From an uncultured virus (IMG/VR IMGVR_UViG_3300042450_001700) (taxonomy: Duplodnaviria > Heunggongvirae > Uroviricota > Caudoviricetes), in the IMG/VR virus record IMGVR_UViG_3300042450_001700: a stretch of 64,000 bases of DNA. One strand, given 5' to 3'. The position numbers and the translations under genes were made by a program. Below the pieces are notes generated by a model. The model did not search any database. It worked only from the letters and a program-made list of their open reading frames with translations, and was not told the DNA's origin. Shown here piece by piece: positions 12,238-50,635 of the stretch (position 1 is the stretch's first letter; each line of letters begins with the position of its first letter).

Positions 12238-12735
12238 TCAGTGTGAAAGATTGTTTGATATTTCTTCAGAACCCAACCGGCCCACCCGAAGCTTCACATT
12301 CCCATCAACCACCGGCTCAGGACACACCACCGGCTCAGCGCCCAGCCACCGGAACACCGCATCAAAACTCTCAGGATCAGACAACACTTCCTCATAGACC
12401 AACGGATACACCCTGATCCCCCGAGCAACCGCCCAAGTCAATACCCGCATCTGCGCCTGCACAATGTTCGCCTCAGCTTCCTCACGGCAAGAAGCAATAC
12501 CACGATCCACCTGCGAACTAATCGTCGCCTCAAACGACCTCAACACAAGAACAACCGCCTGCGGCCACTCCCCGCCAAAGTCAAAATCCGTCGGCCAATG
12601 CGACATCCACTTATCACCCGACGGCATCGACCAGTGCCGAGCAACCACCGCAGGATTAGCTTCCAACCAACGAGACACAAACCTCGTAGCCGACCCAGCA
12701 GGCCCGGTCACGATCACGTTCACATGGTCACTCAC
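12238..12735 (-). CDS. Sulfotransferase/P-loop-like protein
   Basis: VIVTGPAGSATRFVSRWL..NP, LVLRS...TISS and LVYEEVLSDP resemble the sulfotransferase fold; GTG overlaps the upstream stop. Confidence 0.5.
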   Translation of the reverse strand: MSDHVNVIVTGPAGSATRFVSRWLEANPAVVARHWSMPSGDKWMSHWPTDFDFGGEWPQAVVLVLRSFEATISSQVDRGIASCREEAEANIVQAQMRVLTWAVARGIRVYPLVYEEVLSDPESFDAVFRWLGAEPVVCPEPVVDGNVKLRVGRLGSEEISNNLSH

Positions 12736-14423: not shown

Positions 14424-14510
14424 CATGTAGATAACCCTACAGCATGGGTCTGACATTATCAAACCAATAATGGTCAATATCGAAGATTTCTTCAGATTTC
14501 TTTTTCACCC
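14424..14510 (-). promoter_or_regulatory. Class II promoter cassette (TGTCAG-N10-TAGGGT) ending in ATGACATCGAC
   Basis: Near-identical to 17518-17592, 48245-48324 and 50557-50646. Confidence 0.75.
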
Positions 14511-17520: not shown

Positions 17521-17684
17521 GTAGATAACGATACAGCATGGGTGTGACATTATCAAACCAATAACGAAGATTTCTTCAGATTTCTTTTTCGCTCCACCAA
17601 ACCCGATGACCAGTCCAGCGGTTTGCGTCCACCCCTCCACCTACAATGAAGCTCGTACATAGAAGGACTAGAGCGAGGTTGAAC

Positions 17685-20111: not shown

Positions 20112-20302
20112 CCCTCAACGTCGTGGTTCGCGTACTGAACACGCGCATCAGGAAACGCAGCACGCGCTTTGCGAACCGCATGCCACTTGAACCTGAACCC
20201 CTGCTCGGCAGAACCGATCACCCGGTTGTTACCCGCGACTGCCCGCCAGCGCCACAGCCCAGTCTCGTCGGCGTAGATGACAACCTTGTTCCCTTTAGCC
20301 AT
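20108..20302 (-). CDS. DUF1508/YegP-like small protein
   Basis: IYADETGLWRWRAVAGNNRVIGSAEQGF motif; ATG overlaps the endolysin stop. Confidence 0.65.
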   Translation of the reverse strand: MAKGNKVVIYADETGLWRWRAVAGNNRVIGSAEQGFRFKWHAVRKARAAFPDARVQYANHDVEG

Positions 20303-21069
20303 TACGACTGCAAACGCTGAGACAGAAGGTTCGCTGTTGCTGTCGCGTTTTCTGCCGACGACGGTGCAGCAGCCCCGCCGCCGGTAACGACAATCGGGTT
20401 CACCGTCTTGTTCGCCGTCAACGTATTGAAAGTTGCAAGCGTAACGTCCTGAACCTTCGCCCCAAAGAAAACGAGCAGTTGTAGCTCCTCCGGTGAAAGC
20501 CAACGACGGTTGAAATCGTCGATCACTTCGACACGCCCGTGGCTAGGATCACCGGGCTGATTTACTCTTAGATAACTGCTTGCCATTTCATCCTCCGGTG
20601 TTGGGATCGGTTGCGACCCGGTTGCTATTCCTGTTGCTATCTCGGCAGGGCTTGCGACGATCTCGTAGTGCATCGCATCTTTGTTGCCTGAGTAATCCCC
20701 GCCCCAACGGAACACGTTGACCCCGTTGTTTGTTCTGATCGCTTTGATCTCATCGACCATTCCGCGAGGCATGTCTGTTATCAGGACCGGCCCGTAGGGG
20801 TTCTGCTGCCAGTTGATGTCTGCCGCTATCCCGTAGGCGTGCAGGGAGTACTGCGTGCCGCCCGTTATGGCACGACAGTTGTACGCACCACAGTCGGGTG
20901 GGGTTGCCTTGTAGTTCCACTTGATGAGTACAGCGTTGAGTGCTTGCCATGCGTCAACGGTTGAAGCACGAACACTGATCGACGCACCGCCAAACAGGGG
21001 GACGGAAGCGAACGGCCCAGTGCAGGCGGGTTCCCAGAGGACTCGGAGTTGTGCTGTCGTCCGGCTCAT
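20302..21069 (-). CDS. Endolysin, M15 family peptidase
   Basis: R...SLHAYGIAADIN (SxHxxGxAxD) and WGG...DAMHYE motifs. Confidence 0.88.
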   Translation of the reverse strand: MSRTTAQLRVLWEPACTGPFASVPLFGGASISVRASTVDAWQALNAVLIKWNYKATPPDCGAYNCRAITGGTQYSLHAYGIAADINWQQNPYGPVLITDMPRGMVDEIKAIRTNNGVNVFRWGGDYSGNKDAMHYEIVASPAEIATGIATGSQPIPTPEDEMASSYLRVNQPGDPSHGRVEVIDDFNRRWLSPEELQLLVFFGAKVQDVTLATFNTLTANKTVNPIVVTGGGAAAPSSAENATATANLLSQRLQS

Positions 21070-21215
21070 ATCATTTCTTCTTCATCGTTCATGCCGTGCG
21101 GGGCGTTGTCGTCGGGGAATGCCCCGGCGTGGATGACGATTCCTTGTCGGGCGTATAGCTCGTGGTCAACAAGATCGACGTAGCGATCTAGGTCTTCTGC
21201 GGTGGGGTCGTCCAT
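21066..21215 (-). CDS. Small acidic protein (49 aa)
   Basis: MDDPTAEDLDRY..., ATGA overlap with endolysin; TACGAT-N7-ATG leaderless start. Confidence 0.5.
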   Translation of the reverse strand: MDDPTAEDLDRYVDLVDHELYARQGIVIHAGAFPDDNAPHGMNDEEEMI

Positions 21216-21284
21216 GTGGTTGATCGTAGTCGTGTGGTTGTGGGTTGGCAGGGTGGTATTGGCGATGTGACAAGAGTCACAAAC

Positions 21285-21334
21285 AAATAGTAGTTATTGA
21301 CTTGATTAGTGTAGAACCATCAACTACATTCATA
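21285..21334 (+). promoter_or_regulatory. Class I promoter with operator
   Basis: TTGATT(21302)-N17-TACATT(21325); operator GTAGAACCATCAACTAC at 21311-21327. Confidence 0.75.
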
Positions 21335-22015
21335 GGGGTAGGAGCAACCAACAGCAAGGAGCAACATCACTGAAGCAACCAAAACAAACAGAGAACGACC
21401 GCCACCCGAGCCAGACCCAAGGCTCCATCAAGACAGTTCGCTTGAGTCTTGAAAGGGTGAGGCGGCAGTAGCGCACCACTACAAATCACGGTGACGGTTC
21501 CAGCCGAGGAACAGAAAGTAACGGCAAAGCCTGAGAAACAACAGGCAACTCAGCTAGTCAAGCTGAAAGCGAAGCGTGCGCAATCCTTGGCACTTGAGGT
21601 GAAGAATCAAACGGCCACCGAGTAACCCATACAACCACAGCTCTTGGAATAGAGCCACGGAACTCATCGTACTCCTCTCCCTTGCAACATATCTAAGGGT
21701 TGCGCACACTTCGCTTCCAGTCCGACTAGCTACACAGAAACCGCAGAGACATCAGGGCAACCCTTGCAGGGTTGTAAACCTGTGACAGGTCACGGACCCG
21801 GCAAGAGTCCACTCAAGGCATTGAGGACCACACAGGCGACTGCGCCTGATGTACTGACTGCGGCGAGGTAGTTGGATAACGACCTGTGACAGGGTGCTAG
21901 TAGAGATTCACTCATTGGCTTGCCGCCAGACTGAGGCCCGAGCTAGATCACACCCCGAGCTTTTCCTGTCCTATACCGGCAGAACAGCCCCGCCTAGCGC
22001 GGGGCTTTCTGCTTT
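21335..22015 (+). ncRNA. Large structured ncRNA candidate A (~680 nt)
   Basis: No ORF >=60 aa in any frame; bounded by promoter and terminator; long helix 21552-21590/21694-21731; 5'/3' end pairing. Confidence 0.7.
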
Positions 22016-22017
22016 TT
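21979..22017 (+). terminator. Intrinsic terminator (possibly bidirectional)
   Basis: AGCCCCGC-CTAGC-GCGGGGCT hairpin followed by TTCTGCTTTTT. Confidence 0.8.
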
Positions 22018-22444
22018 AGTCAGCCATCGGCTCAGGAATAACCACAGCCGGAAGCAACGCAGCCGACTCCGGGTCACCAACCCGCCGAGCGCCTTCCGCC
22101 TTCAACGCCGCCACAGCGCCCACAGCCCCAGCCCCAAGCGCCGCCTTCCAGAAGTCACCCGACTGAACGTCCAACACGGGTGCCATCACCATGAACGCAA
22201 GGAACGCAGACGCACCTGACCGGGCGACACGCAACGTAAGGTCAGTGTAGAACGGCATACCCACCGGGATCACAGCGGAGTTGACTGAGTTGAGCGCAAG
22301 AGTGATAACCGCTGACACCCCAGCCAACGCTGCGCACTGAACAGCGGTCCAACCGAAAGCCATACCGCCGAACAACGCCACGACAAAAGCTTGAATAAAC
22401 TGAGCTAAAACCTTTTCAACGATTGGTGCAAGTAGCTGTTTCAT
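22016..22444 (-). CDS. Holin-like membrane protein
   Basis: Multiple TM segments, ...FIQAF and VGDPESAALLP ending, near the endolysin. Confidence 0.7.
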   Translation of the reverse strand: MKQLLAPIVEKVLAQFIQAFVVALFGGMAFGWTAVQCAALAGVSAVITLALNSVNSAVIPVGMPFYTDLTLRVARSGASAFLAFMVMAPVLDVQSGDFWKAALGAGAVGAVAALKAEGARRVGDPESAALLPAVVIPEPMAD

Positions 22445-25607: not shown

Positions 25608-25889
25608 GGTGCTTCTCCTAGATCGTTGTGTTGGGTTGGGAGCCTCGGTGTCTCCCGTGGGGGTGTCTCATCCTCCCCTGCGATGGCCTCGGATTTGTTA
25701 CAAGCTTTGACTCCGGTGCCGATCAACTGCTCGCTTGTGTAGATAACCATACAGCATGTCTGTGACAGTGAGTGACCAAAACGGAACATTTCTTCAAATT
25801 CTTTTCCAAACCCCAAACCCGACCCCGCCGATGAGCGCCCAACAGCGGGTTCCACGACCCGAGTCCATCACGCAAGGTAGACTCCGCCG

Positions 25890-27648: not shown

Positions 27649-27807
27649 TGGGTGATGGTAGTTGGTGTCGGGTGTTGGGGGATAGCGTTGTCGGGTTTTG
27701 GGGGTCGAAAAGAAATCTGAAGAAATATCCTATTTGGACTTGCGGGCTGTAGTCGTATCGACTATCTTGATGGGGGTAAGGCAATTCACAACAAAGGAGC
27801 AAGGCAC

Positions 27808-29632: not shown

Positions 29633-29822
29633 CTTTTCCAAAAAGTTATCCACAGGTTTTTCCACAGAGTTATCCACAGAACACCTGTTCGACGAACATT
29701 TGTTCGGAAAAGTTGTCCACAGGTTGTCCACAGGTTGTCCACAGCTTTATCCACAGAAAAGTTTTCCACAGGTTTTCCACAGGCAAAAGTTATCCACAGT
29801 TTGTCCACAGGTTTATCCCCAA
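29633..29822 (+). repeat. DnaA-box array with LexA-like boxes (left)
   Basis: TTATCCACA x4, TTGTCCACA x4 and TTTTCCACA x3, co-oriented at ~11-12 bp spacing; GAAC-N4-GTTC at 29679 and 29694. Confidence 0.85.
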
Positions 29823-29825
29823 CCT

Positions 29826-30602
29826 TGTTCGCTGTTCTCGGCTCGTGGTCGGCGCTCGTGGTCGGCTCTCGCTCTCTTGTTCTCGGCTCGTTCTCGGCTC
29901 TCGCTCTCGCTCTCATGTGGCTCTCATGTTGTGGCAATAGGTGAGACAGTAGGCGCGCGCTATCGGCTCTCTCTGTTCGCTCTCGTTCGTGTGGTCGGCG
30001 CGCTCTCGGCTCTCTCGTTCGTGCCGCTCGTGTTCGCTCTCGGCTCGTGGTCGGCTCTCTCTGTTCGTGGTTCGTTCGTGCCGCTCTCGCTCGTTCTCTT
30101 GGCTCGTGTTCGTGTGCGGCTCGTGGTCGGCTCTCTCTGTTCGTGGTTCGTTCGTGCCGCTCTCGCTCGTTCTCTTGGCTCGTGTTCGTGTGCCGCTCGT
30201 GGTCGGCTCTCGTGTTCGTGTGGCTCGTTCGCTCGTGTGGCTCGTGTGCCGCTCGTGTGGCTCTCTCTCGGCTCTCGTGTGCCGCTCTCGTGGCCCAGCA
30301 GCGCGTGCCGCTCTCGGCTCGTGGTTCGTGTGGCTCTCGTTCGTGTTCGTTCGCTCTCGTGGCTCTCGTGGCGCTCTCGTTCGTGGTCGGCGCTCATGGC
30401 TCTCTCGTGTGTTCTCTGTTCGCTCTCGGCTCTCGCTCTCGTGTGGCGCTCTCTCGCTCGTTCTCGTGGCTCGTGGTCGGCTCTCGTTGGCTCTCGCTCG
30501 TGGTGCCGCTCTCGTTCTCTCTCGTGGCTCGTGGCTCTCGCTCATGGCACTCACCCAGCAGCTCGTGCCGCTCGTGCCGCTCGTGCCGCTCGTTCTCGTT
30601 CT
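29826..30602. repeat. Adenine-free low-complexity tract 1
   Basis: Mosaic of GCTCTC/GCTCGTG/GTTC/GCC/GGTCG units. Confidence 0.9.
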
Positions 30603-30605
30603 CCC

Positions 30606-30646
30606 CAAAAACTAGAACGAGAGCCGACCGTTTTGGTCGGCTCTCG
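30606..30646 (-). terminator. Cassette terminator
   Basis: GAGAGCCGACC-AAAAC-GGTCGGCTCTC hairpin then GTTCTAGTTTTT; repeated at ~31641-31682, 32686-32728 and 33646-33684. Confidence 0.75.
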
Positions 30647-30657
30647 TTCTCGGCTCG

Positions 30658-30984
30658 TCAGTCCTTGAATATTGCTTTTAGCTCGGCAGTGATTGCCCGC
30701 TGAAGCGCTGGAATTTCGCGCACAAGAGCGTTGTACGTTTTCGGCTCAACCGCCAAAGTGTGAGTGCCAACACCTTGAGCGTTGAGAGTGCGAACCCACT
30801 TAGGCGTTCCGGCGTATCCTTCGTCAGTTGTGATGACTTTCGTGCCGTTCTCGTTGTAACCAACGAACACCCGGCGAGGATTTCCATGTACGTTGTTTGT
30901 TGTTGTGTAGTAGCCGATCGAACGGATGTTGAGCAGTAGCTCGTGTGCGGTCATTTGGTTGGCGAGTACTTCGTGGATTGCCAT
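30658..30984 (-). CDS. Cassette gene 1, hypothetical (108 aa)
   Basis: Normal-complexity ORF between the conserved leader and terminator. Confidence 0.75.
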   Translation of the reverse strand: MAIHEVLANQMTAHELLLNIRSIGYYTTTNNVHGNPRRVFVGYNENGTKVITTDEGYAGTPKWVRTLNAQGVGTHTLAVEPKTYNALVREIPALQRAITAELKAIFKD

Positions 30985-31172
30985 GATTTTTCTCTCATTC
31001 CCGAGCGGCTCGTGCCGCTCGTGTTGTTGGTGTGACTACATTCAACCAAAGATTGGAACAGAACGCAATAGCAAAACACCAGATTCTTTTTCTGACAGCG
31101 ATTTAGCCGCTAGAACTAGGGGGTTTTGCCCCAAAAGAAATATTTTGGAATCGCTCCAAAACGGTCGTTTTG
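30985..31172 (-). promoter_or_regulatory. Conserved ~185-bp cassette upstream block (4 copies)
   Basis: Homologous to 31961-32146, 33022-33208 and 33999-34180; includes TTGCGT, GTAGTCACACCAACAACACGAG and a hairpin before GAGAG. Confidence 0.75.
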
Positions 31173-31635
31173 GCGCTCTCGGCTCATGTTGCTCTCGGCT
31201 CTCGTGGTGCCGCTCATGTTGCTCTCGTGCCGCTCTCGCTCTCGGCTCTCGCTTGCCGCTCATGGCGCTCTCGTGTGGTCGGCGCTCGTGGCTCTCGGCT
31301 CGTGGTCGGCGCTCTCACCCAGCAGCGCTCTCGCGCGCTCTCGTGGCTCGTGGTCGGCGCTCGGCTCATGGTCGGCTCGTGCCGCTCTCACCCAGCGCTC
31401 GTGTGGCGCTCGTGTGGTGCCGCTCTCGGCTCGTTCTCTCTCGTGGTCGGCTCTCGTGCCGCTCGTGCCGCTCGTGGCGCTCTCGTGGCTCGTGGTGCCG
31501 CTCTCTCGGCTCTCGGCTCGTGTGCTTGCTCTCGCTCTCTCTCGTGCCGCTCTCGGCTCGTGTGGTGCCGCTCGTGGCTCATGCCGCTCTCGGCTCTCGC
31601 CCAGTCTTGTGTGGCGCTCGTGGCGCTCTCTCGTT
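31173..31635. repeat. Adenine-free low-complexity tract 2
   Basis: Same unit vocabulary as tract 1. Confidence 0.9.
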
Positions 31636-31693
31636 GGATCCAAAAACTAGAACGAGAGCCGACCGTTTTGGTCGGCTCTCGCTCTCGCTCGTT

Positions 31694-31960
31694 CTAGCCT
31701 AGTTGATCCTCTCGTTTTGGCAGTAGTTGGAGTTCTTCCCGATCTCCGGCGAGAGCGTCACAACATTCGCACAAGTTGCGGCTGAATGATCCCGAGAACC
31801 AATCCGAAGCCGGAACCAGATCAAAATCCTTGCTTAGTTCTTCGATCCCTTTTTGGCATGCAATCGAATCGGCTTCGCTCATTCCCGAGTCATCGCCATC
31901 AGCGATCATTTGGAGGCAGTTGAGGCAAACTCGGATGGTGATGATGTCTGACAGCTTCAT
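31694..31960 (-). CDS. Cassette gene 2, acidic Zn-binding-like (88 aa)
   Basis: VCLNC...FS...CECC...GDR motif. Confidence 0.75.
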   Translation of the reverse strand: MKLSDIITIRVCLNCLQMIADGDDSGMSEADSIACQKGIEELSKDFDLVPASDWFSGSFSRNLCECCDALAGDREELQLLPKREDQLG

Positions 31961-32146
31961 TTTTTTCTCTCATTCCCGAGCGGCTCGTGCCGCTCGTGTT
32001 GTTGGTGTGACTACATCAAAGCAAACATTTTGACTATACGCAATAGCAAAATGCGAGATTCTTTTTCTGACCGGGGTTTTGCCGCTAGTTCTAGGGGTTT
32101 TCACGCCAAAAGAAATATTTTGGAATACGTCCAAAACGGACGTTTT

Positions 32147-32685
32147 GCCGCTCTCGGCTCTCTTGTGCCGCTCGTGTTCTCGTGGTTCTCGCTCTCTCGT
32201 TCTCTCGGCTCGTGTGGCGCTCGTGTGGTCGGCTCATGGCGCTCTCGCTCGTGGTTCGTCCTAGTGCCGCTCTCGTGGCTCGTGGCGCTCGTGTGTGGCT
32301 CTCTCGTGGTTCTCGTGGCGCTCTCGTGTGGCGCTCGTTCTCATGCCGCTCTCGTGGCTCTCGTGTGGCTCGTGGTTCGTGCCGCTCGTGGTTCTCGGCT
32401 CTCACCCAGCAGCGCGCTCGTGTGGCTCGTGTGGTGCCGCTCGTGTTCGTTCGTGGTTCGTGGTCGGCGCTCGTGTTCTCTGTTCGCTCTCGTGGCTCGT
32501 GTGGCGCTCTCGTGGCGCTCATGGTGCCGCTCTCGTTCGTGGTCGGCTCATGTGGCTCTCTCGTGGCTCGTGGTTGCTCGTTCGTGGTTGCTCTCGGCTC
32601 ATGGCGCTCTCGTGTTCGTTCGTGCCGCTCTCGGCTCTCTCGTGGCTCTCACCCAGCGCTCGTGGTGCCGCTCTCGGCTCGTGCC
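32147..32685. repeat. Adenine-free low-complexity tract 3
   Basis: Same unit vocabulary. Confidence 0.9.
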
Positions 32686-32736
32686 AAAAACGGCAACAAG
32701 CGCCGACCGTTTTGGTCGGCGCTCGTTGCTCGTTTT

Positions 32737-33021
32737 CTAGAACGCTTGGAACAGAATCCCGTCGCAAAATTCGACTGCAAAAGTCATATCGTTGAGAGCG
32801 TCAAGCGAGTCGAAATTTTCGCCGTAGTTCTCGTTGATCTCTTCCAAGTCTGCCGCAAACATCCATTCTTGATCGAATGCGATTGGATCGAATTCAACCC
32901 CTTGGCCTTCTTCTTCTGCCGCTTCGATAAGCTCAAACAGTGCGTAGGATGCGTTGATCGGCCAGTTGCAAAGTGTGCGCATTGTTTGGGCAAACGTGCA
33001 GGCTGTCAGTAGTTCGTACAT
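32737..33021 (-). CDS. Cassette gene 3, very acidic protein (94 aa)
   Basis: SYALFELIE...EFDPIAFDQEW...LDALNDMT; D/E-rich. Confidence 0.75.
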   Translation of the reverse strand: MYELLTACTFAQTMRTLCNWPINASYALFELIEAAEEEGQGVEFDPIAFDQEWMFAADLEEINENYGENFDSLDALNDMTFAVEFCDGILFQAF

Positions 33022-33208
33022 TTTCTTTTCTCATTTCCCGAGCAGTTGGTGCCGCTCGTGTTGTTGGTGTGACTACATCAAAGCAAAGATTTGAAAGATA
33101 CGCAATAGCAAAACACGAGATTCTTTTTTCGACCGGGGTTTTCGCCCTAGAACTAGCGGGTTTTGCACCAAAAGAAATATTTTGGAATCGCTCCAAAACG
33201 GCAGTTTT

Positions 33209-33645
33209 CGCGCTCTCGCTCGTTCTCTCGTGTTGCTCGTTCTCGGCTCTCGGCTCATGGTTCTCTCGGCTCTCGTGTGGTGCCGCTCTCGCTCTCGGCT
33301 CTCGCTCTCGGCTCGTGTGCCGCTCTCGCCCAGCAGCGCGCTCGTGTGCCGCTCTCGTGTGGTTCGTGGTCGGCTCTCGGCTCTCGCTCATGGTTGCTCT
33401 CGTGTGCCGCTCGTGTTCGTGGCAGATACCCAGCGGCGCGTGCCGCTCTCGTGGCTCGTGTTTGCTCTCGGCTCATGCCGCTCTCGTGGTTGCTCTCTCG
33501 TGGCTCTCTCGGCTCGTGGTTGCTCTCTCGCTCGTGCCGCTCATGGTCGGCTCGTGGTGCCGCTCTCGGCTCTCGTGGTCGGCTCTCGTGCCGCTCTCGT
33601 TCTCGTGGCTCTCCCAGCCGCTCGTGGCGCTCGTGTGGCGCTCGC
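33209..33645. repeat. Adenine-free low-complexity tract 4
   Basis: Same unit vocabulary. Confidence 0.9.
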
Positions 33646-33698
33646 AAAAACGAGAATGAGCGCCGACCTTTTTGGTCGGCGCTCGTGGCTCGTGTGGT

Positions 33699-33998
33699 TC
33701 AGTCGTATTCAACCTCACCCCATTGATTTGTTCGTGAATGACAGAACTCTTCAACATAGTAAGAGTTGAGATCAACGTATTTTGGTGCCGCTTCAGCCGC
33801 TTCAGCCGCTTCAGCGATTTCCATGACTAGCGCCCTAGTCGAAACTGACGGAACCGATTTGCCGCCAGCGTTTTTGGCGATTTCAGTCCACTCAGAATCG
33901 GTCAAGTACTCGGGGTTTTTGCCGATAGTGGCGATTTCTGTCGCCATCTTCTTAGCAAGCTTTGCCCGATTTGCTAGGTGTGCCGGATGTGCTTTCAT
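33699..33998 (-). CDS. Cassette gene 4, HPxHL-family copy 3
   Basis: MKAHPAHLANR...W..IA..AG...PS..T. Confidence 0.75.
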   Translation of the reverse strand: MKAHPAHLANRAKLAKKMATEIATIGKNPEYLTDSEWTEIAKNAGGKSVPSVSTRALVMEIAEAAEAAEAAPKYVDLNSYYVEEFCHSRTNQWGEVEYD

Positions 33999-34180
33999 TC
34001 TGCTCTCTCTTCCCGAGCCGCTCGGCTCGTGTTGTTGGTGTGACTACATCAAAGCAAAGATTCCACACATAAGCAATAGCAAAATGCGAGATTCTTTTTG
34101 GAACAGCGGTTTTACCCCTAGAACTAGGGGGTTTTGCACCAAAAGAAATCTTTTGGAATCAGCCCAAAACGGTCGTTTTG

Positions 34181-34528
34181 GCTCTCGGCTCGCTCTCTCA
34201 TGGTCGGCTCTCGGCTCGTGTTCTCATGGCTCTCTCATGGCGCTCTCATGGTTCTCTCTCTCTTGTGCCGCTCTCGCTCTCTCATGCCGCTCTCGTGGTC
34301 GGCTCGTGGCTCGTGGCGCTCTCTCTTGCTCTCGGCTCTCGTGTGGCGCTCTCGTGGCTCGTGTGGTTGCTCTCTGTTCTCGTGGCGCTCTCTGTTCTCT
34401 CTCGGCTCGTGTTCTCTCTCTCATGGCGCGCTCGTTCTCGTGGTCGGCTCGTGGTCGGCTCGTGGTTGCTCTCGCTCTCTCGCTCTCGGCTCTCTCATGG
34501 TCGGCTCGTGTGGCGCTCTCGGCTCATG
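34181..34528. repeat. Adenine-free low-complexity tract 5
   Basis: Same unit vocabulary. Confidence 0.9.
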
Positions 34529-34614: not shown

Positions 34615-34846
34615 TTATCCCCAACCACACCAACCAGACGAGCCAAAAACAGCCAAAAGTTTTCCACAGGTTTTCCACAGGTTTTCCACAACTTTTTCCA
34701 CAGAACACCCGTTCCCCAAACGAATGTTCGATCAAAGTTATCCACAAGTTATCCACAGGTTTATCCACAGAACACCTGTTCGATCCGGTTATCCCCAGAG
34801 TTATCCACAGGTTTATCCACAGGTTTATCCACAGCCTGTGGATAAC
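34615..34846 (+). repeat. DnaA-box array with LexA-like boxes (right)
   Basis: TTATCCACA x6 plus one inverted copy (34837), TTTTCCACA x4; GAAC-N4-GTTC at 34703 and 34770. Confidence 0.85.
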
Positions 34847-36637: not shown

Positions 36638-36902
36638 GGCTTGGTCCAGTCCCGTCACGGCTGGGCGAAGCCGGTATCGGGTTTCAGTAAATGCGAAAGG
36701 ACCGGAAGTCTGTGCTTCAGTGCTTCGCTCCTGCGGAGCTTCTCTGTCGCTCACTTCTCCGGTCCTTTGTAGCTTGAGCTTCTCTATCCTCGTTCCTACG
36801 GAACTTCAGTGCTTCGCTCAGTTGCTTTGTAGCTAGTGGCTAGGCCGTCCGTTCCCGGTTTCATTCCCGGACTTGACCGCTTTGCGCAGGTACTCGCTAC
36901 CC
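36638..36902 (-). ncRNA. Structured ncRNA candidate F (~265 nt)
   Basis: Class I promoter TTGCGC-N17-TACGGT at 36908-36936; closing stem GGTC-A-AGTCC/GGACT-G-GACC; duplicated internal motifs. Confidence 0.65.
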
Positions 36903-37033
36903 CCATTACCGTATCAGGGTTTACTACAGTGCGCAAGTCAATAACGAAACAATCTCAGATTTCTTTTTGACCACCATCGGGCCACCACCACCAGTTTCCT
37001 GTTTGCGTCCATAGAGAATGTTATTGTTGAAGT

Positions 37034-37420: not shown

Positions 37421-37611
37421 TGGAACCTGAACCTCCTGTAGAGGTTGACCCTCCGGTTGATAACCCGATGCTTGACGTTTATAAAGCGGCTACCGAGTTG
37501 TTGCGGCGGAACCGTCCTGTGAAACAGAACCGTGAGCAGCGGCGTGCAGCGTTACGGGCGAAGAAGTCTAAAGGTCGTTGACCGCTGGGTCTGAGTTGTG
37601 GGGTCACCGTA

Positions 37612-37688
37612 AAATGGAAGAAGCCCGGTGCGTAAGGGGGAGCTTCTTGATGCTCAACCCCCGACAACCGGGCTTGCGTTCCTATGTG
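37612..37688 (-). ncRNA. Small hairpin RNA candidate G (~77 nt)
   Basis: Class I promoter TTGATA-N17-TACAGT; AAGCCCGGT/ACCGGGCTT closing stem followed by a U-rich tail. Confidence 0.5.
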
Positions 37689-37752
37689 TCTTTGACTGTA
37701 GTTGATGGTTCTACAGTTATCAAGTCTATTTGCAAATAGTTTTCGGATTTCT

Positions 37753-38529
37753 TTACAACCCCAAAACCGTGTACTCAACCACACACTGACAATTCACTGA
37801 CTCAGCAGCAGGCAAAGCAATATCCCCCGGATACTCAGCAAAGAACCCACCAACAACAAACAACTCACCCGGACCCACCACCTGCCCATTAGCAGCAGCA
37901 TGAGACTCCCTACTATCCACCAACTGGCAAATCCAAACCTTCGACCCCTCAACACCAACAGCGATCAACTCATCAGGAATATCAACATCGTCCAACTCCG
38001 CCAACAAATCAAAAGCAGAACCAGCCGCAGCGTTCAACCCGCTGTTCGTTTCAGTAACAGTCATAACCCGTGCCACCCCCTGAGACAACGGTCCAGACAC
38101 ACCACCATCAAACAACCCCAGCCGGTCTAACAGCCAACCCGGAGCCTGACCAGATGCCTCCGTTGAAGCAACCGCAACCCGCCCATCAACAGTTGCGCCA
38201 ACCTTGTAAATCACAACCATCCGTGCAGCCAACATCTCCTCAGCCGCACTCTCCACAACATTAGAACGCAACAACCACACCAACCCCAAAGCAATCGCAG
38301 CATCACGAGCAATCTCCCGATACATCCGATCCAAAACAGGCTTCACTTCAGAATCAACAGCCTCAACCCACCAGCCCTGATCCCACAAGTCCTCATACAT
38401 CCCATCAGACTTCGTGACTCTCGCCCTCAACTTCGCTCTCACATCATCAAACGCAAAGCCAATAGCACGCCCAACCCTATAATTCCACAACGCACGGTCA
38501 GCATCAGATAACAGATACGACCCGGCCAT
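37753..38529 (-). CDS. MuF-like minor head protein
   Basis: TETN, KVW...SRESH...NGQ...F.VGG...YPGD...ESVNCQC motifs. Confidence 0.8.
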   Translation of the reverse strand: MAGSYLLSDADRALWNYRVGRAIGFAFDDVRAKLRARVTKSDGMYEDLWDQGWWVEAVDSEVKPVLDRMYREIARDAAIALGLVWLLRSNVVESAAEEMLAARMVVIYKVGATVDGRVAVASTEASGQAPGWLLDRLGLFDGGVSGPLSQGVARVMTVTETNSGLNAAAGSAFDLLAELDDVDIPDELIAVGVEGSKVWICQLVDSRESHAAANGQVVGPGELFVVGGFFAEYPGDIALPAAESVNCQCVVEYTVLGL

Positions 38530-39320: not shown

Positions 39321-40595
39321 TCAGTACGGCACCTCTTCATCCCAATGGTCTTTCGGTTGTTGCCATCCCGAGTCTAGTTCCCAAACACCTTTCCAAGGCC
39401 ACGGTGTGGAACGCTCAATCACATCAGGCCAATCATTCTCCAGACGGTCGCCACGCCAACGCCCAACCTGCATGATCTCATTGCCATCTTCTTTCGATTC
39501 CAGCTTCAACCCGATCTCAGGCCACCGCAACCACAGGCTCGAACCATACGGCATCAAGTCACGAGTACCGCCTGACCCTTTCGGTGCGTGATGCTCAAGG
39601 ATCAGCCCGAACCCGTAACGGACACGCAGATCGTCAAACACAGACATCACCTCAGAAGAAGCCTGCTCATCGGATTCTCGTGCTTCCACCCGGTACGCCT
39701 TGTAGATCGGCCCCAAGCAAACGAGTGTGGGGCGCACATGGGCGATCACAGCTTCCAGTTCAGACCTGTCACGCCTTGACCGCAGATTCACACCACCGGG
39801 CCGGTGCCATAGCCATGCTCTATCAGGATCGTATTCTTCAGCAACCGAACCAACTTGTGTTCTGATCGGATTACAAACGTCGATAATCGAATCATCAGGA
39901 TTCTCAAGATCAACAATCAGCGTCCTACAAGGCGGTATCGGCGTGAACCGCAAAGGATGAATCCCCTGCGCAGCAGCAATACCCAACTGCCGCAGCAGAA
40001 CCGTCTTACCGATCCCCTCCTGAGCAACAACCATCACCCGCCACCCGACACGCATCAAACCCGGAATCACCCAAGCAGGACGCTCCGAAACAGGCCGATC
40101 CAAGAACCCGTCAATCGTCCACACATCCCCCGGCACCTCAACCACATCCGACTTATGAATATCCAGCACCGCAGCATTCAACATGTCACCAAGCTCAGAT
40201 GGATCACCGTCCTGCCCGTAAGACCGTTCCCCTATTTCCTTGCAAGCGCTAATCAGCTTCCTGTACGCAGCGCACTTCACAACCCTTGTCGCATACGCAG
40301 ACACGTTTGACACGAACCCAGCGTTCGCCACCAATGACATAATCCCCGCAGCACCCCCATAAGCGCCTTCCCCCTCAGACAGCGTGAGCGCCCCCGTAAG
40401 CGTCGTAGCGTCCACAGGCTCCCCACGCCCATACATCCCCGCAATCGTCGCATACAGCACCCTCAGACGAGGCGTGTAGAGGTCTTCAGCGGAACACAGC
40501 GGCAATACCTCACCGATAGCCTCGTTATTCAAGATCATCGCACCAACAAGCGCTTCCTCAGCCTGCTCGTCATACGGCGGCGATTGTTCCTTCAT
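39321..40595 (-). CDS. Replicative helicase (DnaB N-terminal domain plus RecA-like/AAA_25 ATPase)
   Basis: PPYDEQAEEALVGAM N-domain; Walker A EGIGKT; LILEHH..K and YGSS motifs. Confidence 0.85.
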   Translation of the reverse strand: MKEQSPPYDEQAEEALVGAMILNNEAIGEVLPLCSAEDLYTPRLRVLYATIAGMYGRGEPVDATTLTGALTLSEGEGAYGGAAGIMSLVANAGFVSNVSAYATRVVKCAAYRKLISACKEIGERSYGQDGDPSELGDMLNAAVLDIHKSDVVEVPGDVWTIDGFLDRPVSERPAWVIPGLMRVGWRVMVVAQEGIGKTVLLRQLGIAAAQGIHPLRFTPIPPCRTLIVDLENPDDSIIDVCNPIRTQVGSVAEEYDPDRAWLWHRPGGVNLRSRRDRSELEAVIAHVRPTLVCLGPIYKAYRVEARESDEQASSEVMSVFDDLRVRYGFGLILEHHAPKGSGGTRDLMPYGSSLWLRWPEIGLKLESKEDGNEIMQVGRWRGDRLENDWPDVIERSTPWPWKGVWELDSGWQQPKDHWDEEVPY

Positions 40596-41029
40596 GCTTC
40601 CAACTCCTTCAACCCGGACAACTTGCCCTGAACCAGCGCTTCATACGAACCCTTGAACCGTGATTGCCAACCAAACATCCCCGCAGACAAACCAGCACAC
40701 GACTCAATGACCAGATCATGCACGACAGGACGGACGGGAACATGCCCCGAACCATTCACAAACCGCATCTGCTCCCGATAAGCCAACCAGCGCTCGGCAC
40801 CAGCCAACGCCGCAGCTTCATCCGGCGCTCCAGTAGCAGCACGACACACAGCAGCCACAGACGGACGGAACTCCTCAGTCCTCAACATTGCCTGAACACC
40901 CATATTGGTTGGCCCAAACGGAAGACCCCTCAAACACTCCACATAGATCAACGCCATCTCAGGAGGGAACTTCTGCGACCACCCAAACTCCAACAACCGG
41001 ACAACCTGCCCTGCCTCACCAAGGTTCAT
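40592..41029 (-). CDS. Putative helicase loader/inhibitor (G39P-like)
   Basis: Position between initiator and helicase; FRPSVA motif. Confidence 0.5.
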   Translation of the reverse strand: MNLGEAGQVVRLLEFGWSQKFPPEMALIYVECLRGLPFGPTNMGVQAMLRTEEFRPSVAAVCRAATGAPDEAAALAGAERWLAYREQMRFVNGSGHVPVRPVVHDLVIESCAGLSAGMFGWQSRFKGSYEALVQGKLSGLKELEA

Positions 41030-41973
41030 CCCTGCTCCTGAGCGTACAAAGCCATCACCTGATCCGTAGCCGACATCTTCCCGCGTTCCCCTCCAGCCTC
41101 AAAGATGTCCCTAAACCGCTCAACCCGCTCACCATCCCTGATCGCAACAAGCAGATCATCAAACTTCTTCCCATCAGGGTTATCCCCTGTATGCCACGCA
41201 GACAACGCAATCCCCCGTGCAGCAGCCACCAAGTCCTCCTCGGTGTAACCCTCGCGCAAACGGGCAGCAACAGCAGACCTCCGTTTCGCGTTCAACTTCA
41301 CTTTCCCCGGTGCGCGCCCAGTCGCCAGCACCCACGCTTCCATCACCCGCTCCGCCGTCCCCGCGTTTTTCGTTATCTGCCCTGCGTCAACGAGTTGAAG
41401 TTCAGAACGAGGCGGTAAAGAAACGGATTCCGTTTCCGCGTTTTCTGTTTCGTTGACATAAGTCTTTATAGTCTTTTTATAGTCTTGACTCTTAGTACTG
41501 ATAATAGGGCCTGAAAAACCGGAACCCGTTTCTCCGGCTCCGGTTATCCGGCGACGGGTTTCCAGTCCCCGGTCAATATGACTATCAGATAAGTCGTCGT
41601 CTGTTTCGACCAGTGGCCGCTCCCGAACCACAGCTTCATTCACCCAACGCCCATCCGGGCCACGATACTTTTCACGCGTGATATAGCCAGCTTCTTCAAG
41701 CTCCGCTAACGCAGCACGAACAGCATCACGACCCTCCTTGCATCGTTTACTGATCTCTATTGAGTTGATCCGCCAACCATCAGGCTTGTCCAAAAGCCAC
41801 ACGAGCAGCCCAGTGGCACGCAACGACAAGGCTTCATCGTTGATAGTCCGTGAGTCAATGACTGTGAACTGTTTGCGGTGTTCAACTCTGATCGTCACTT
41901 CAGTCCTTCCCTGCCGGACCCGAAGTGTGCAACCTTGACCAAGTGCTGTATGCTTGGACTCAGGAACTGACAC
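41026..41973 (-). CDS. Replication initiator-like protein with N-terminal HTH (start may be GTG 41898)
   Basis: FTVI...LSLRATGLLVWLL..PDGW...EGRDAVR.AL.ELE.AGY; C-terminal ARLREGYT..DL domain. Confidence 0.75.
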   Translation of the reverse strand: MSVPESKHTALGQGCTLRVRQGRTEVTIRVEHRKQFTVIDSRTINDEALSLRATGLLVWLLDKPDGWRINSIEISKRCKEGRDAVRAALAELEEAGYITREKYRGPDGRWVNEAVVRERPLVETDDDLSDSHIDRGLETRRRITGAGETGSGFSGPIISTKSQDYKKTIKTYVNETENAETESVSLPPRSELQLVDAGQITKNAGTAERVMEAWVLATGRAPGKVKLNAKRRSAVAARLREGYTEEDLVAAARGIALSAWHTGDNPDGKKFDDLLVAIRDGERVERFRDIFEAGGERGKMSATDQVMALYAQEQG

Positions 41974-42103
41974 GCCAAATGGGTATGGCGGAGGTGTCTT
42001 AGAAGAGTCGGGCGAGTACTAATCGTCCGGCTTCTTCGCGTATTGGGCTACCGACCCCATGAGTGTTTTGGACCCGGTAGCGGCAAGTGTACCAGATGGG
42101 TGT

Positions 42104-42466
42104 TCAGATTTCTTTCTCCACATAAACCACTCTGCCGTCAATGATGACGATGCCTTCTGGCAATATCGCATGATCCAGTATCGCCCCACGCAGATCAGCT
42201 CCGAATAGGCTTGCTCCGAATAGGTGTGCGTTCGTGAGGTTCGCTCTGCGTAGGTCGGCTCTGCGTAGGTCGGCGTTATGCAGGTTTGCGCAGATGAGGT
42301 CGGCTCCGATGAGGTTCGATCCGAATAGGTCGGCGTTTGTCAGGTTCGCTCCGAACAGAACGGCTCCCATTAGGTTTGTGTCGGATAGGTCTGCCCCGTA
42401 GAGGTTCACTCCGGTTAGGTCGGCTCGTTCCATGTTGCGGACTTCGTGTCCGATGATTGTGGTCAT
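42104..42466 (-). CDS. Pentapeptide repeat protein
   Basis: A(D/N)Lxx repeats throughout. Confidence 0.9.
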   Translation of the reverse strand: MTTIIGHEVRNMERADLTGVNLYGADLSDTNLMGAVLFGANLTNADLFGSNLIGADLICANLHNADLRRADLRRANLTNAHLFGASLFGADLRGAILDHAILPEGIVIIDGRVVYVEKEI

Positions 42467-42555
42467 CCTTCGACCCATATTCTCCAGCAGAGCATTCCTA
42501 CGCTTGCGATGTTTCCTACGATTGCGATTGCTATGTGAATCTCGGTCTGTGTCAT
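42463..42555 (-). CDS. Small single-TM peptide (30 aa, leaderless)
   Basis: TTGATT-N16-TATACT-N6-ATG; MTQTEIHIAIAIVGNIASVGMLCWRIWVEG. Confidence 0.6.
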   Translation of the reverse strand: MTQTEIHIAIAIVGNIASVGMLCWRIWVEG

Positions 42556-42656
42556 ACCCCTAGTATAGTCATATGAACTACAGAATCAAGTCAATATCAA
42601 ACAAATATCAAGATTTCTTTCAGCACCAAACACCACACAACGGCTACCCTAAACAT

Positions 42657-45007: not shown

Positions 45008-45077
45008 CCCATAAAGATAGTCGATGCGACTACACATGTCAAGTCAATAATCAAGATTGTTTGATATTTCTTTTCGG

Positions 45078-45981: not shown

Positions 45982-46047
45982 CACAAGACAGTAGTCGATA
46001 CGACTACAGTCCGCAAGTCGAAACAGAAGATTGTTTGATATTTCTTT

Positions 46048-48245: not shown

Positions 48246-48313
48246 AAAGAAATATCAAACAATCTTGGTTATTGACTTGATAATGTCCCACAGGTGCAGT
48301 AACTTGATCTACA

Positions 48314-50570: not shown

Positions 50571-50635
50571 AGAAATGTTCCATATTGGGCATTATTGGTT
50601 TGATAATGTCATACCCATGCTGTAGGGTTATCTAC

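What the first reader, a model, noticed from the sequence alone, without database searches (positions are those of the whole stretch)
21335..22015. RNA A sits antisense inside the lysis module
Seen: a 680-nt gap with no ORF of 60 aa or more in any frame, between holin and endolysin, on the opposite strand. It has a ~38-nt interrupted helix (21552-21590 with 21694-21731), nested stems (CCGCCACCC/GGGTGAGGCGG, CATCAGG/CCTGATG, CGGCAAAGCC/GGCTTGCCG) and 5'/3' end pairing. Inference: an independent RNA gene whose terminator may also uncouple holin from endolysin transcription.
Basis: partly seen in the sequence, partly recalled or inferred. Interest (0 to 1): 0.75.

Follow-up and report, generated by a model that had tools for sequence, protein, structure and literature searches.

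The report
New large structured phage RNA gene
A lake-water phage carries a roughly 680-base gene, next to its cell-bursting genes, that makes a folded RNA instead of a protein; it matches no catalogued RNA family and most resembles the large phage RNAs whose job is still unknown.

Summary
Window 21137-22015 is the largest ORF-free stretch of the window and folds far better than shuffles (z -5.8). It is a separate + strand transcription unit. Its promoter (about 21297-21330) carries a box found 7 times in the window against 0.26 expected by chance. A + strand intrinsic terminator lies at 21986-22015.

Eleven related viral contigs hold the same RNA in one place, between a holin-like gene and a 49-aa ORF plus M15 endolysin. 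Two cores are 88-99% identical, while the flanking genes are 76-95%. Helices keep pairing through compensatory changes, and G-U pairs fit the + strand only. Long hairpin arms and the 3' domain are swapped as modules.

Rfam gives no match (no GOLLD, ROOL, 6S, RNase P or intron). There is no tRNA nearby and no sign of coding.

Best reading: a new class of large structured phage RNA that acts through its fold. It is probably made from an early-type promoter, and its function is unknown. An antisense role in lysis timing is the main rival. The idea that its terminator uncouples holin from endolysin got no support, because the terminator scan flags the RNA strand only. Expression was not shown. The family is narrow: 7 distinct sequences.

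The parts
21267..21280 (.). Perfect palindrome GTGAC-AAGA-GTCAC just upstream of the RNA promoter; possible operator for a dimeric repressor (inference).
   Evidence: Read from the sequence. The same palindrome stands upstream of a promoter of this family in G001 (L003) and in L007.
21297..21330 (+). Promoter of the RNA: conserved box TTGACTTG-N5-TGTAG, with -35 TTGATT (21302-21307), a 17-nt spacer and -10 TACATT (21325-21330). Predicted start near 21337.
   Evidence: The box ACTTG-N4-5-TGTAG occurs 7 times in the window against 0.26 +/- 0.48 in 100 shuffles. Alignment of the family members. In two other members the TAnnnT hexamer is followed 6 nt later by the ATG of a small ORF (sequence), which fits leaderless mRNAs. 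The -10 and start assignments are inference. The generic sigma-70 scan did not flag the site.
21337..22015 (+). RNA A transcript, about 680 nt (predicted ends).
   Evidence: Promoter and terminator as listed in the other rows; fold z -5.8; conserved in 11 related contigs.
21337..21394 (+). A/C-rich, weakly structured 5' leader with a Shine-Dalgarno-like AAGGAG (21356-21361) that no conserved start codon follows.
   Evidence: A(A/G)GGAG is kept in all 10 aligned sequences while the flanking leader varies. It is unpaired in the centroid fold. It resembles the leader of the mRNA driven by the family promoter at 27738.
21395..21469 (+). 5' domain helix (CGACCGCCACCC with GGGTGAGGCGG) enclosing hairpin 21408-21425 with the invariant loop AGACCCAA. 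Its inner part varies: relatives carry an insert or a deletion here.
   Evidence: Compensatory changes: pair GAGCC/GGCTC becomes GAGTC/GACTC in 3 of 7 sequences. One search counts 4 and 3 compensatory cells in the two helices.
21467..21548 (+). 5' core: three small hairpins (loop AGCCGA among them) and single-stranded CGGCAAAG. Nearly invariant.
   Evidence: Window 21436-21547 (a slightly wider segment than this row) is 93-99% identical over 81-112 aligned nt in 6 relatives, against 81-85% for the holin gene in the five of them that reach it. Invariant columns are listed.
21550..21733 (+). Long hairpin arm 'A' (about 185 nt, 35-pair interrupted stem). It is a swappable module.
   Evidence: Present in the window, L008/L009 and L011/L012. 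L010 has a variant with a different apex. L006, L007 and L015/L016 have an unrelated 180-nt hairpin 'B' instead. L008 and L012 carry B and A in tandem.
21741..21863 (+). 3' core: a closed multi-helix domain (7 helices, 46 pairs) with loops GGCAA (21800-21804) and GGCA.
   Evidence: 98.4% of 322 cells are paired. 5 pairs change on both sides, against 1.6 +/- 1.0 in shuffles (0 of 500 reach it) and 0-1 when partners are slid. Model R1 scores 165-185 bits in all homologues.
21892..21955 (+). 3' extension: a nested long hairpin topped by the invariant loop TTGCC (21920-21924). It exists in two sequence types with the same architecture.
   Evidence: Type 1 is in the window and L015/L016; type 2 is in L006-L012. 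Type 2 has 5 of 62 pairs changed on both sides among 4 sequences. The stem under the loop is GGC/GCC in type 1 and GAC/GTC in type 2.
21986..22015 (+). Intrinsic terminator of the RNA (8-pair GC stem, then a T tract). It ends where the stop codon of the convergent holin-like gene begins.
   Evidence: flags the + strand only. The equivalent hairpin in L008 is flagged on the RNA strand only. L016 is not flagged.
22016..22444 (-). Holin-like membrane protein gene (142 aa), convergent with the RNA.
   Evidence: phrog_443 holin at E 1e-4. The homologue in L058 hits Pfam Phage_r1t_holin at E 2.5e-4, below cut-off.
20302..21215 (-). 49-aa acidic ORF (21066-21215) overlapping, by ATGA, the start of the M15 endolysin gene (20302-21069). 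This unit diverges from the RNA gene.
   Evidence: Pfam Peptidase_M15_4 at E 8e-12 and PHROG endolysin families. The ATGA overlap is read from the sequence. The ORF is 87-93% identical in relatives.

Best explanation
RNA A is a stand-alone gene for a large (about 680 nt here, up to about 900 nt in relatives), highly structured noncoding RNA. It belongs to a narrow clade of lake-water tailed phages, probably phages of Actinobacteria.

Transcription. The RNA is transcribed rightwards from a host-type promoter. The same promoter family stands upstream of the phage's replication genes and two small RNA candidates, so it is probably made early or in mid infection. Transcription stops at its own intrinsic terminator, back to back with the holin-like gene.

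Mode of action. The RNA acts through its three-dimensional fold, not through complementarity. Two nearly invariant cores (5' core and 3' core) carry the function. Long hairpin arms and the 3' extension are interchangeable modules that keep their architecture. An accessible Shine-Dalgarno-like leader may bind 30S subunits to stabilise the RNA or to engage ribosomes. The most likely role is a scaffold, decoy or self-assembling RNA of the GOLLD/ROOL kind that serves the phage during infection.

What is shown: the gene's anatomy, its conservation, its structure and its strand. What is inferred: the timing, the ribosome contact, the loop-loop contact (TTGCC with GGCAA) and the role.
For: Own transcription signals.
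- The promoter box occurs 7 times in the window against 0.26 expected; 0 of 100 shuffles reach 7.
- The copy at 42578-42591 (- strand) points towards the replication genes at 39321-42478.
- A + strand terminator is present.

Structure.
- Fold z is -5.8, -6.8 and -8.1 in three variants.
- In the 3' core, 98.4% of cells are paired and 5 pairs change on both sides, against 1.6 in shuffles (0 of 500 reach it) and 0-1 in slid controls.
- In the type-2 3' extension, 5 of 62 pairs are compensatory. The 5' hairpin has one more.

Strand. 15 of 322 cells in the 3' core are G-U or U-G, which would be A-C on the other strand. Only 1 cell is A-C. The type-2 3' extension has a further 26 G-U cells.

Selection on the sequence itself. 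The cores are 88-99% identical. The endolysin gene is 85-90%, the holin gene 81-85% and the next ORF 76-95%.

Modularity with kept architecture.

Not coding.
- The longest ORF is 51 aa, and there are 1- and 2-nt indels in the cores.
- The open frame in hairpin-B variants has dN/dS 1.2-1.5 against L016 and no family hit.

One copy per genome in 3 of 3 long relatives.
Against: - Expression is not shown. The RNA-library contigs that could be laid did not cover the RNA gene, which is no evidence either way.
- The alignment is shallow: 7 distinct sequences from one clade.
- Most core pairs never vary: 35 of 46 in the 3' core, and hairpin B has 0 of 61 compensatory pairs. Much of the proposed structure therefore rests on thermodynamics.
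- Shuffle controls can be exceeded by related sequences without any structure (caveat stated by the tool).
- The promoter is not flagged by the generic sigma-70 scan. The -10 and start site are my reading.
- No partner, ligand or target is identified.
- The fixed position next to the lysis genes would fit a local, cis or antisense role equally well.
Confidence: 0.55

Rival explanations
1. Antisense or convergent-transcription timer of lysis. RNA A matters because its transcription runs head-on into lysis-strand transcription coming from the holin operon. Its transcript can also pair with any read-through RNA that must cross about 800 nt to reach the 49-aa ORF and the endolysin. Early RNA A synthesis would hold endolysin back, and late transcription would override it.
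For: - In all 11 contigs that hold the RNA and reach that far, it lies in the same slot and orientation between holin and endolysin.
- No lysis-strand terminator is flagged after the holin gene.
- No family promoter box stands on the - strand between 21216 and 21336 in the window, so the endolysin may depend on read-through.
- The promoter class looks early.
- A possible operator lies upstream.
- Long near-perfect helices would be RNase III substrates (established knowledge).
Against: - Complementarity comes for free on opposite strands. It does not explain compensatory changes, + strand-specific G-U pairs, invariant loops, or cores more conserved than the neighbouring genes.
- The RNA does not overlap either coding region or a ribosome-binding site.
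- Relatives carry an additional element upstream of the RNA promoter, so the intergenic region may hold an undetected endolysin promoter.
Confidence: 0.2
2. A known RNA class missed by the models (group I or II intron, RNase P-like, 6S-like or another ribozyme), or a - strand element of the lysis mRNA such as an intron or a processing site.
For: Size and ornate structure. Optional peripheral hairpins are typical of introns and RNase P (established knowledge). The - strand also folds well, z -5.2.
Against: - No Rfam family reaches gathering score in the window.
- Nothing relevant appears at E up to 10 in 21000-22300, or at E up to 1 in three relatives with the other modules.
- Both flanking ORFs are complete, so no exons need joining.
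- G-U pairs fit the + strand.
- The promoter and terminator are on the + strand.
Confidence: 0.05
3. No functional RNA: a mosaic junction of decayed or short coding sequence, for example the 44-aa ORF at 21491-21625 or the 100-135-codon open frame in hairpin-B variants.
For: - A stop-free frame of 101-135 codons exists in 8 of the 10 intergenic sequences examined (the 5 distinct variants L006, L007, L008, L012, L016 and their duplicates).
- The region is a recombination hot spot.
Against: - The frame has no ribosome-binding site at its candidate starts.
- dN/dS is 1.2-1.5 against L016, no better than the other frames. One pair (L008/L006) gives 0.3, from only 9 changes.
- There is no Pfam or PHROG hit.
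- The frame is cut to 44 aa with a different tail in the window.
- The RNA strand has only 16% T, so long open frames are expected by chance.
- The cores are more conserved than the coding neighbours.
Confidence: 0.05

Closest known systems
[quoted passage not shown]
   Same: Both are phage or prophage encoded, several hundred to over 800 nt and very elaborately structured, first seen in lake or marine metagenomes. Both have conserved parts beside poorly conserved or variable parts, and function unknown. GOLLD expression rises during phage lysis and ribosomes were pulled down with it (PMC12286853, passages read). RNA A lies next to lysis genes and has a Shine-Dalgarno-like leader.
   Different: RNA A does not match the Rfam models. 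GOLLD is often found near tRNA islands, but the window has no tRNA gene. RNA A has two conserved cores separated by a swappable arm, not a conserved 3' half. Multimer formation is unknown for RNA A.
ROOL RNA (Rumen-Originating, Ornate, Large)
   Same: Both are phage or prophage encoded large ornate RNAs with a variable internal linker, no known protein partner and unknown function (PMC12286853).
   Different: RNA A has no Rfam match, no tRNA neighbourhood and a different habitat: lake-water metagenomes.
Phage 'moron' cassettes (a gene with its own promoter and terminator inserted between genes of a phage operon)
   Same: RNA A has its own promoter and terminator, lies in opposite orientation between late-strand genes, and is present in some relatives of the flanking genes and absent in others. 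The concept is recalled from the phage literature, not read here.
   Different: The cargo is a large structured RNA, not a protein.
Convergent type I toxin-antitoxin RNAs of prophages (antitoxin RNA overlapping the 3' end of the mRNA of a small membrane toxin)
   Same: An RNA gene is convergent with a gene for a small membrane-damaging protein, and their 3' ends meet at one hairpin. The class is recalled, not read here.
   Different: RNA A is 3-4 times longer, has a conserved ornate fold, and does not overlap the holin coding sequence.

Membership tests
GOLLD RNA (Rfam model) | Match to the family covariance model | tested here: not met
   No match at gathering score in the whole window. None at E up to 10 in 21000-22300. 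None at E up to 1 in three relatives.
GOLLD / ROOL RNAs | Frequent position beside tRNA genes or tRNA islands | tested here: not met
   ARAGORN finds 0 tRNA or tmRNA genes in the 64-kb window.
GOLLD / ROOL RNAs | RNA-only homo-oligomeric cage | not testable with these tools
   This needs in vitro transcription with native sizing or cryo-EM. The only hint is an invariant loop TTGCC complementary to two invariant GGCAA sites, with no covariation to support it.
ROOL RNA (Rfam model) | Match to the family covariance model | tested here: not met
   no match.
Group I / group II introns | Interrupts a gene whose exons join into one reading frame; match to intron models | tested here: not met
   The holin-like ORF ends with its own stop at 22016-22018, and the 49-aa ORF and endolysin have their own starts. 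There is no + strand ORF on either side. No Rfam intron hit.
6S RNA / RNase P RNA / tmRNA | Match to family models | tested here: not met
   Rfam; tmRNA.
Independent structured ncRNA gene (generic criteria) | Own promoter and terminator on one strand | tested here: met
   The promoter box family occurs 7 times against 0.26 expected. A + strand terminator is present. Both are sequence predictions only.
Independent structured ncRNA gene (generic criteria) | Conserved secondary structure with compensatory changes | tested here: met
   5 of 46 pairs; 0 of 500 shuffles reach it; 5 of 62; 1 of 26. The data are shallow: 7 distinct sequences.
Independent structured ncRNA gene (generic criteria) | Transcript detected | tested here: inconclusive
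   Three RNA-library runs held only short contigs over the flanking genes, and the contigs cannot show absence.
Type I toxin-antitoxin antisense RNA | Sequence overlap with the toxin mRNA | tested here: inconclusive
   The RNA terminator ends at 22015 and the holin stop codon is at 22016-22018. Overlap exists only if the holin mRNA runs into the hairpin, and transcript ends are unknown.

The most novel reading that the evidence does not exclude
RNA A is the founding member of a third, unrelated class of self-assembling 'ornate' phage RNAs. The invariant TTGCC loop of the 3' extension kisses the invariant GGCAA loop or strand of another copy. The swappable 180-nt arms set the geometry of an RNA-only multimer, and the Shine-Dalgarno-like leader brings ribosomes to it early in infection of freshwater Actinobacteria.
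Probability: 0.12. Interest if true: 0.85.

Novelty: new variant of a known kind. Interest (0 to 1): 0.62.

Why it matters
Only a handful of bacterial and phage RNAs above 500 nt with elaborate conserved folds are known. Two of them (GOLLD, ROOL) were recently shown to build RNA-only cages whose purpose is still open. RNA A would be an unrelated further example, and it offers three practical handles:
- It has clear transcription signals.
- It has natural variants in which whole arms and the 3' domain are exchanged.
- It has a fixed place next to lysis genes.

Together these give a new test case for what such RNAs do for phages. The swapped modules act as natural domain-swap experiments, showing which parts are essential. 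The RNA also shows that phage 'moron' slots can carry large RNA cargo.

Tried and rejected
Searches that found nothing:
- BLASTN of the region against 50,697 phage records and 72,556 plasmid records: no match.
- Degenerate core pattern in metagenome contigs and genome contigs: 0 hits each.
- A second genome-contig scan with a 3' core pattern: 0 hits.

Two scans wasted by my own errors:
- The second metagenome-contig scan was mis-specified. I gave a 10-base spacer where the sequences have 8-9, so it could not match even the window and says nothing.
- One viral scan was off by one base and says nothing. The corrected pattern was checked on the fetched loci. It returned the same clade: 10 contigs.

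Other viral scans returned the same 11 and 10 contigs. Model R1 found nothing in the more distant endolysin loci L013-L014 and L017-L027, in G001 (L001-L003), or in L054/L058 (filters off, best E 0.38).

Expression. Of 24 runs listed, 3 were RNA libraries with small shares. Laid together with one DNA run, their contigs covered parts of the endolysin and holin genes but not the RNA gene. Contigs cannot show absence, so this is no evidence.

The window's own assembly is not held. Earlier notes of this scan: three look-ups, nothing returned.

Literature:
- A search for a noncoding or antisense RNA in lysis cassettes listed nothing relevant (listing only).
- The catalogue of over ten thousand candidate structured RNAs in viruses and phages (PMC10690425) has no mention of lysis, holin or endolysin in its text.
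- Four of the IMG sample numbers of the RNA-bearing contigs do not occur in the 6 supplementary files that could be searched. Three further files were not searched, so the RNA could still be listed there.

Readings considered and dropped:
- The window-specific 12-pair helix 21779-21791 / 21881-21893 of the MFE: 26 of 72 cells are broken in relatives.
- The 5'/3' end pairing: 23 of 45 cells are broken.
- A link between the RNA leader and the A-free repeat blocks at 29.8-34.5 kb: the best match is 20 nt at 90%, E 0.13.
- RNase P-like motifs, which I noticed by eye: no model support.

Full report
**What is there**

The window is a tailed-phage genome segment with major head, portal, terminase, tail, replication and methylase genes.

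The finding lies in the largest ORF-free stretch of the window, 21137-22015. It is one of only four such stretches of 250 nt or more at a 70-aa threshold. Inside 21335-22015 the longest ORF is 51 aa.

On the - strand the stretch is bordered on the right by a 142-aa membrane protein with weak holin similarity (22016-22444). On the left it is bordered by a 49-aa acidic ORF (21066-21215). That ORF's stop overlaps the start of a Peptidase_M15_4 endolysin (20302-21069).

**Is the structure more than chance?**

Yes. The + strand 21320-22015 folds at -256.1 kcal/mol, against -207.9 +/- 8.3 for 20 dinucleotide shuffles (z -5.8). The complementary strand gives z -5.2. Two natural variants give z -6.8 (724 nt) and -8.1 (925 nt).

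**A transcription unit of its own**

A + strand intrinsic terminator lies at 21986-22015.

Upstream, 21297-21330 carries a box (ACTTG, 4-5 nt, TGTAG) that occurs 7 times in the window. Shuffles give 0.26 +/- 0.48, and none of 100 reach 7.

Aligning these copies and their surroundings shows three shared parts:
- a TTG-type -35;
- a 17-nt spacer;
- a TAnnnT -10, which here is TTGATT 21302-21307 with TACATT 21325-21330.

In two other members an ATG follows the -10 hexamer after 6 nt. That is what leaderless mRNAs look like, and it puts the RNA's start near 21337. The -10 and start assignments are my inference, and the generic sigma-70 scan did not flag the site.

One family member (42578-42591, - strand) points into the replication module: an initiator-like protein and a DnaB-like helicase at 39321-42478. 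Two others precede short ORF-free, terminator-ended units. The RNA therefore shares its promoter type with early or middle functions, which is also an inference.

In the window a perfect palindrome (21267-21280) precedes the promoter. In most relatives a different upstream element (AAAGAAATCTGAAGAAAT) stands there, as it does at other promoters of the family.

**Relatives**

A search with the endolysin found 24 viral-contig loci.
- BLASTN of the 800-nt intergenic region hit 11 of them (L004-L012, L015, L016). It also hit the promoter alone in G001.
- Of the 16 loci with 88% or more endolysin identity, 11 have the RNA.
- Two (L013, L014) have an unrelated upstream region with other small genes.
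- Three (L017-L019) end too close to the gene to tell.
- Pattern scans of the viral collection returned only the same contigs.
- The covariance model of the 3' core found the same set at 165-185 bits and nothing else.
- It found one copy in each of three long relatives of 49-67 kb.
- A search with the holin found two further contigs (L054, L058). There the holin is followed by a convergent terminase large-subunit gene instead of the RNA, the small ORF and the endolysin.

The slot after the holin is therefore a mosaic boundary, and the RNA behaves like a cassette.

**Anatomy from the alignment**

From 5' to 3':
1. An A/C-rich leader. A(A/G)GGAG is kept in all 10 sequences, but no conserved start codon follows it.
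2. A 5' helix with a hairpin whose loop is invariant.
3. A nearly invariant 5' core (21467-21548).
4. A long hairpin arm. The window has arm A. L006, L007 and L015/L016 have an unrelated arm B of 180 nt. L008/L009 and L011/L012 have B and A in tandem. L010 has arm A with another apex. Every variant has at least one arm.
5. A 3' core (21741-21863) closed by a 16-pair helix.
6. A 3' extension in two sequence types that share one architecture: a nested long hairpin topped by the invariant loop TTGCC.
7. The terminator.

The modules are recombined among contigs. L012 shares the window's promoter and 5' end at 99-100%. L016 shares its 3' extension at 95% but has arm B.

**Evidence that the fold is selected**

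In the 3' core (7 distinct sequences, 46 pairs, 322 cells):
- 98.4% of cells form standard pairs.
- 5 pairs show changes on both sides, against 1.6 +/- 1.0 in 500 shuffles (none reach 5). With partners slid by 1-3 columns the count is 0-1.
- 35 of the 46 pairs never vary, and the sequences are related, so this is supportive and not conclusive.

Elsewhere:
- The type-2 3' extension adds 5 compensatory pairs of 62 among 4 sequences.
- The 5' hairpin adds one: CG in 4 sequences, UA in 3.
- Arm B adds none of 61.
- The stem under the TTGCC loop is GGC/GCC in type 1 and GAC/GTC in type 2.
- The 6-nt complementarity CGGCAA/TTGCCG is invariant, and a second invariant GGCAA sits in a 3' core loop (21800-21804). 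A loop contact, within or between molecules, is therefore possible but untested.

**Which strand?**

In the 3' core, 15 of 322 cells are G-U or U-G, which would be A-C mismatches on the other strand. Only one cell is A-C. The type-2 extension has 26 more G-U cells. Together with the promoter and terminator, this puts the function on the + strand.

**Selection on the sequence**

The cores are 88-99% identical to the window in six relatives. The endolysin gene is 85-90%, the holin gene 81-85% and the next ORF 76-95%.

**Not coding**

- One- and two-base indels occur inside the cores.
- Variants with arm B do have a stop-free frame of 101-135 codons.
- That frame lacks a ribosome-binding site at its possible starts.
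- It shows dN/dS of 1.2-1.5 against L016, no better than the other frames. One pair (L008/L006) gives 0.3 on only 9 changes.
- It hits no Pfam or PHROG family.
- It is cut to 44 aa with a different tail in the window.
- With 16% T on this strand, long open frames are expected by chance.

**Known families**

Rfam 15 gives nothing at gathering score in the window. It gives nothing relevant at E up to 10 around the region (the best is a plant microRNA precursor model at E 0.16, a long-hairpin artefact). It gives nothing at E up to 1 in three relatives with the other modules. There is no tRNA or tmRNA in the window. There is no DNA similarity in the phage and plasmid collections.

**Habitat and host**

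Runs holding the stretch are labelled lake water metagenome: 21 DNA runs with at least half of the sampled words. Seven of them may be the source.

The major head protein's relatives among cultured phages are actinobacteriophages: 858 records, mostly Mycobacterium, Gordonia and Microbacterium phages, at 31-36% identity. Together with the leaderless-looking starts, this suggests an actinobacterial host. This is weak inference.

**How it most likely works**

The pattern consists of a stand-alone unit, invariant cores, covarying helices, strand-specific wobble pairs, and exchangeable arms that keep their shape. Such a pattern is what a trans-acting folded RNA shows, and it is not needed for a mere antisense transcript.

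I therefore favour a structural RNA (scaffold, decoy or self-assembling particle) made from an early-type promoter. Its Shine-Dalgarno-like leader may bind 30S subunits. That could protect the 5' end, as known for SD-type stabilisers in Gram-positive bacteria (recalled, not read here), or it could engage ribosomes. Ribosomes were reported to bind GOLLD (PMC12286853, discussion passage).

The main rival is a lysis timer working through head-on transcription and pairing with read-through lysis mRNA:
- No lysis-strand terminator is flagged after the holin gene.
- No family promoter box lies on the - strand before the 49-aa ORF in the window.
- So the endolysin may need to be read through the RNA gene.

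The two roles are not exclusive.

**Limits**

- No transcript was observed.
- The RNA-library contigs that could be laid covered only the neighbouring genes.
- The family is narrow: 11 contigs, 7 distinct sequences.
- Two of my collection scans were mis-specified and carry no information.
- R-scape and a model search over whole collections could not be run.

**Verdict**

The terminator-uncoupling idea is not. The RNA is a new class within the known kind of large ornate phage RNAs, and its function is open.

Noticed in passing
window 29823-34496 (flanks 29634-29834 and 34638-34846): Five blocks of about 400-750 nt whose + strand has almost no A (runs of up to 334 nt without a single A). They are built of degenerate CTCG/TGG/GCTC words and alternate with spacers of normal composition that share a 199-nt repeat, with a period of about 975-1060 nt. 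Both ends carry arrays of GTTATCCACAG (DnaA-box-like) repeats at 11-12 nt spacing. The many 'ORFs' there are artefacts of the missing A or T. Very unusual and not explained.
   Followed up: partly
window 36688-36940, - strand: A candidate small RNA of about 225 nt. It has a family promoter box at 36924-36938, the same GGGGGTAG start region as other members, no ORF above 46 aa, and ends in a GC hairpin plus T tract. Fold z is -2.7. It contains CACUGAAG twice, a word also found in the RNA A leader.
   Followed up: partly
window 37606-37728, - strand: A candidate RNA of about 85 nt. Its promoter is the closest copy of the RNA A promoter (the copy found). It is followed by one long hairpin and a T tract, with fold z -4.5.
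   Followed up: partly
window 12246-12267, 14482-14503, 17566-17587, 25784-25805, 27709-27730, 37733-37754, 42599-42620, 45052-45073, 46026-46047, 48246-48267, 50559-50580: A repeated element of about 22 nt (AAAGAAAT-TGAAGAAAT type, read in the direction of transcription) lies just upstream of the promoters on either strand. It may be an UP-like or activator site. In most relatives it also precedes the RNA A promoter, but the window has a palindrome instead.
   Followed up: partly
window about 42553-42555 and about 12.2 kb, - strand: Small hydrophobic ORFs whose ATG lies 6 nt after the TAnnnT hexamer of a family promoter. This suggests leaderless mRNAs, which fits an actinobacterial host.
   Followed up: no
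L054 3442-5013 and L058 1756-3327: In two relatives with 80-90% identical holin, the gene after the holin is a convergent terminase large subunit (phrog_38, E 7e-44), followed by a PAPS-reductase-like gene. The holin therefore sits at a module boundary with different neighbours in different phages.
   Followed up: yes
L008 3282-3686 (- strand) and equivalents in L006, L007, L012, L016: A stop-free frame of 101-135 codons runs through the 5' core and hairpin B of the RNA. It shows no coding signature and no family hit.
   Followed up: yes
L014 2300-3730: A contig with a 94% identical endolysin has, upstream, small opposite-strand genes. Each is preceded by a repeated motif of the CCCGACAAGCTTATTGTAGCACAC type, perhaps a phage-specific promoter. 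This is a different phage type sharing the endolysin.
   Followed up: no
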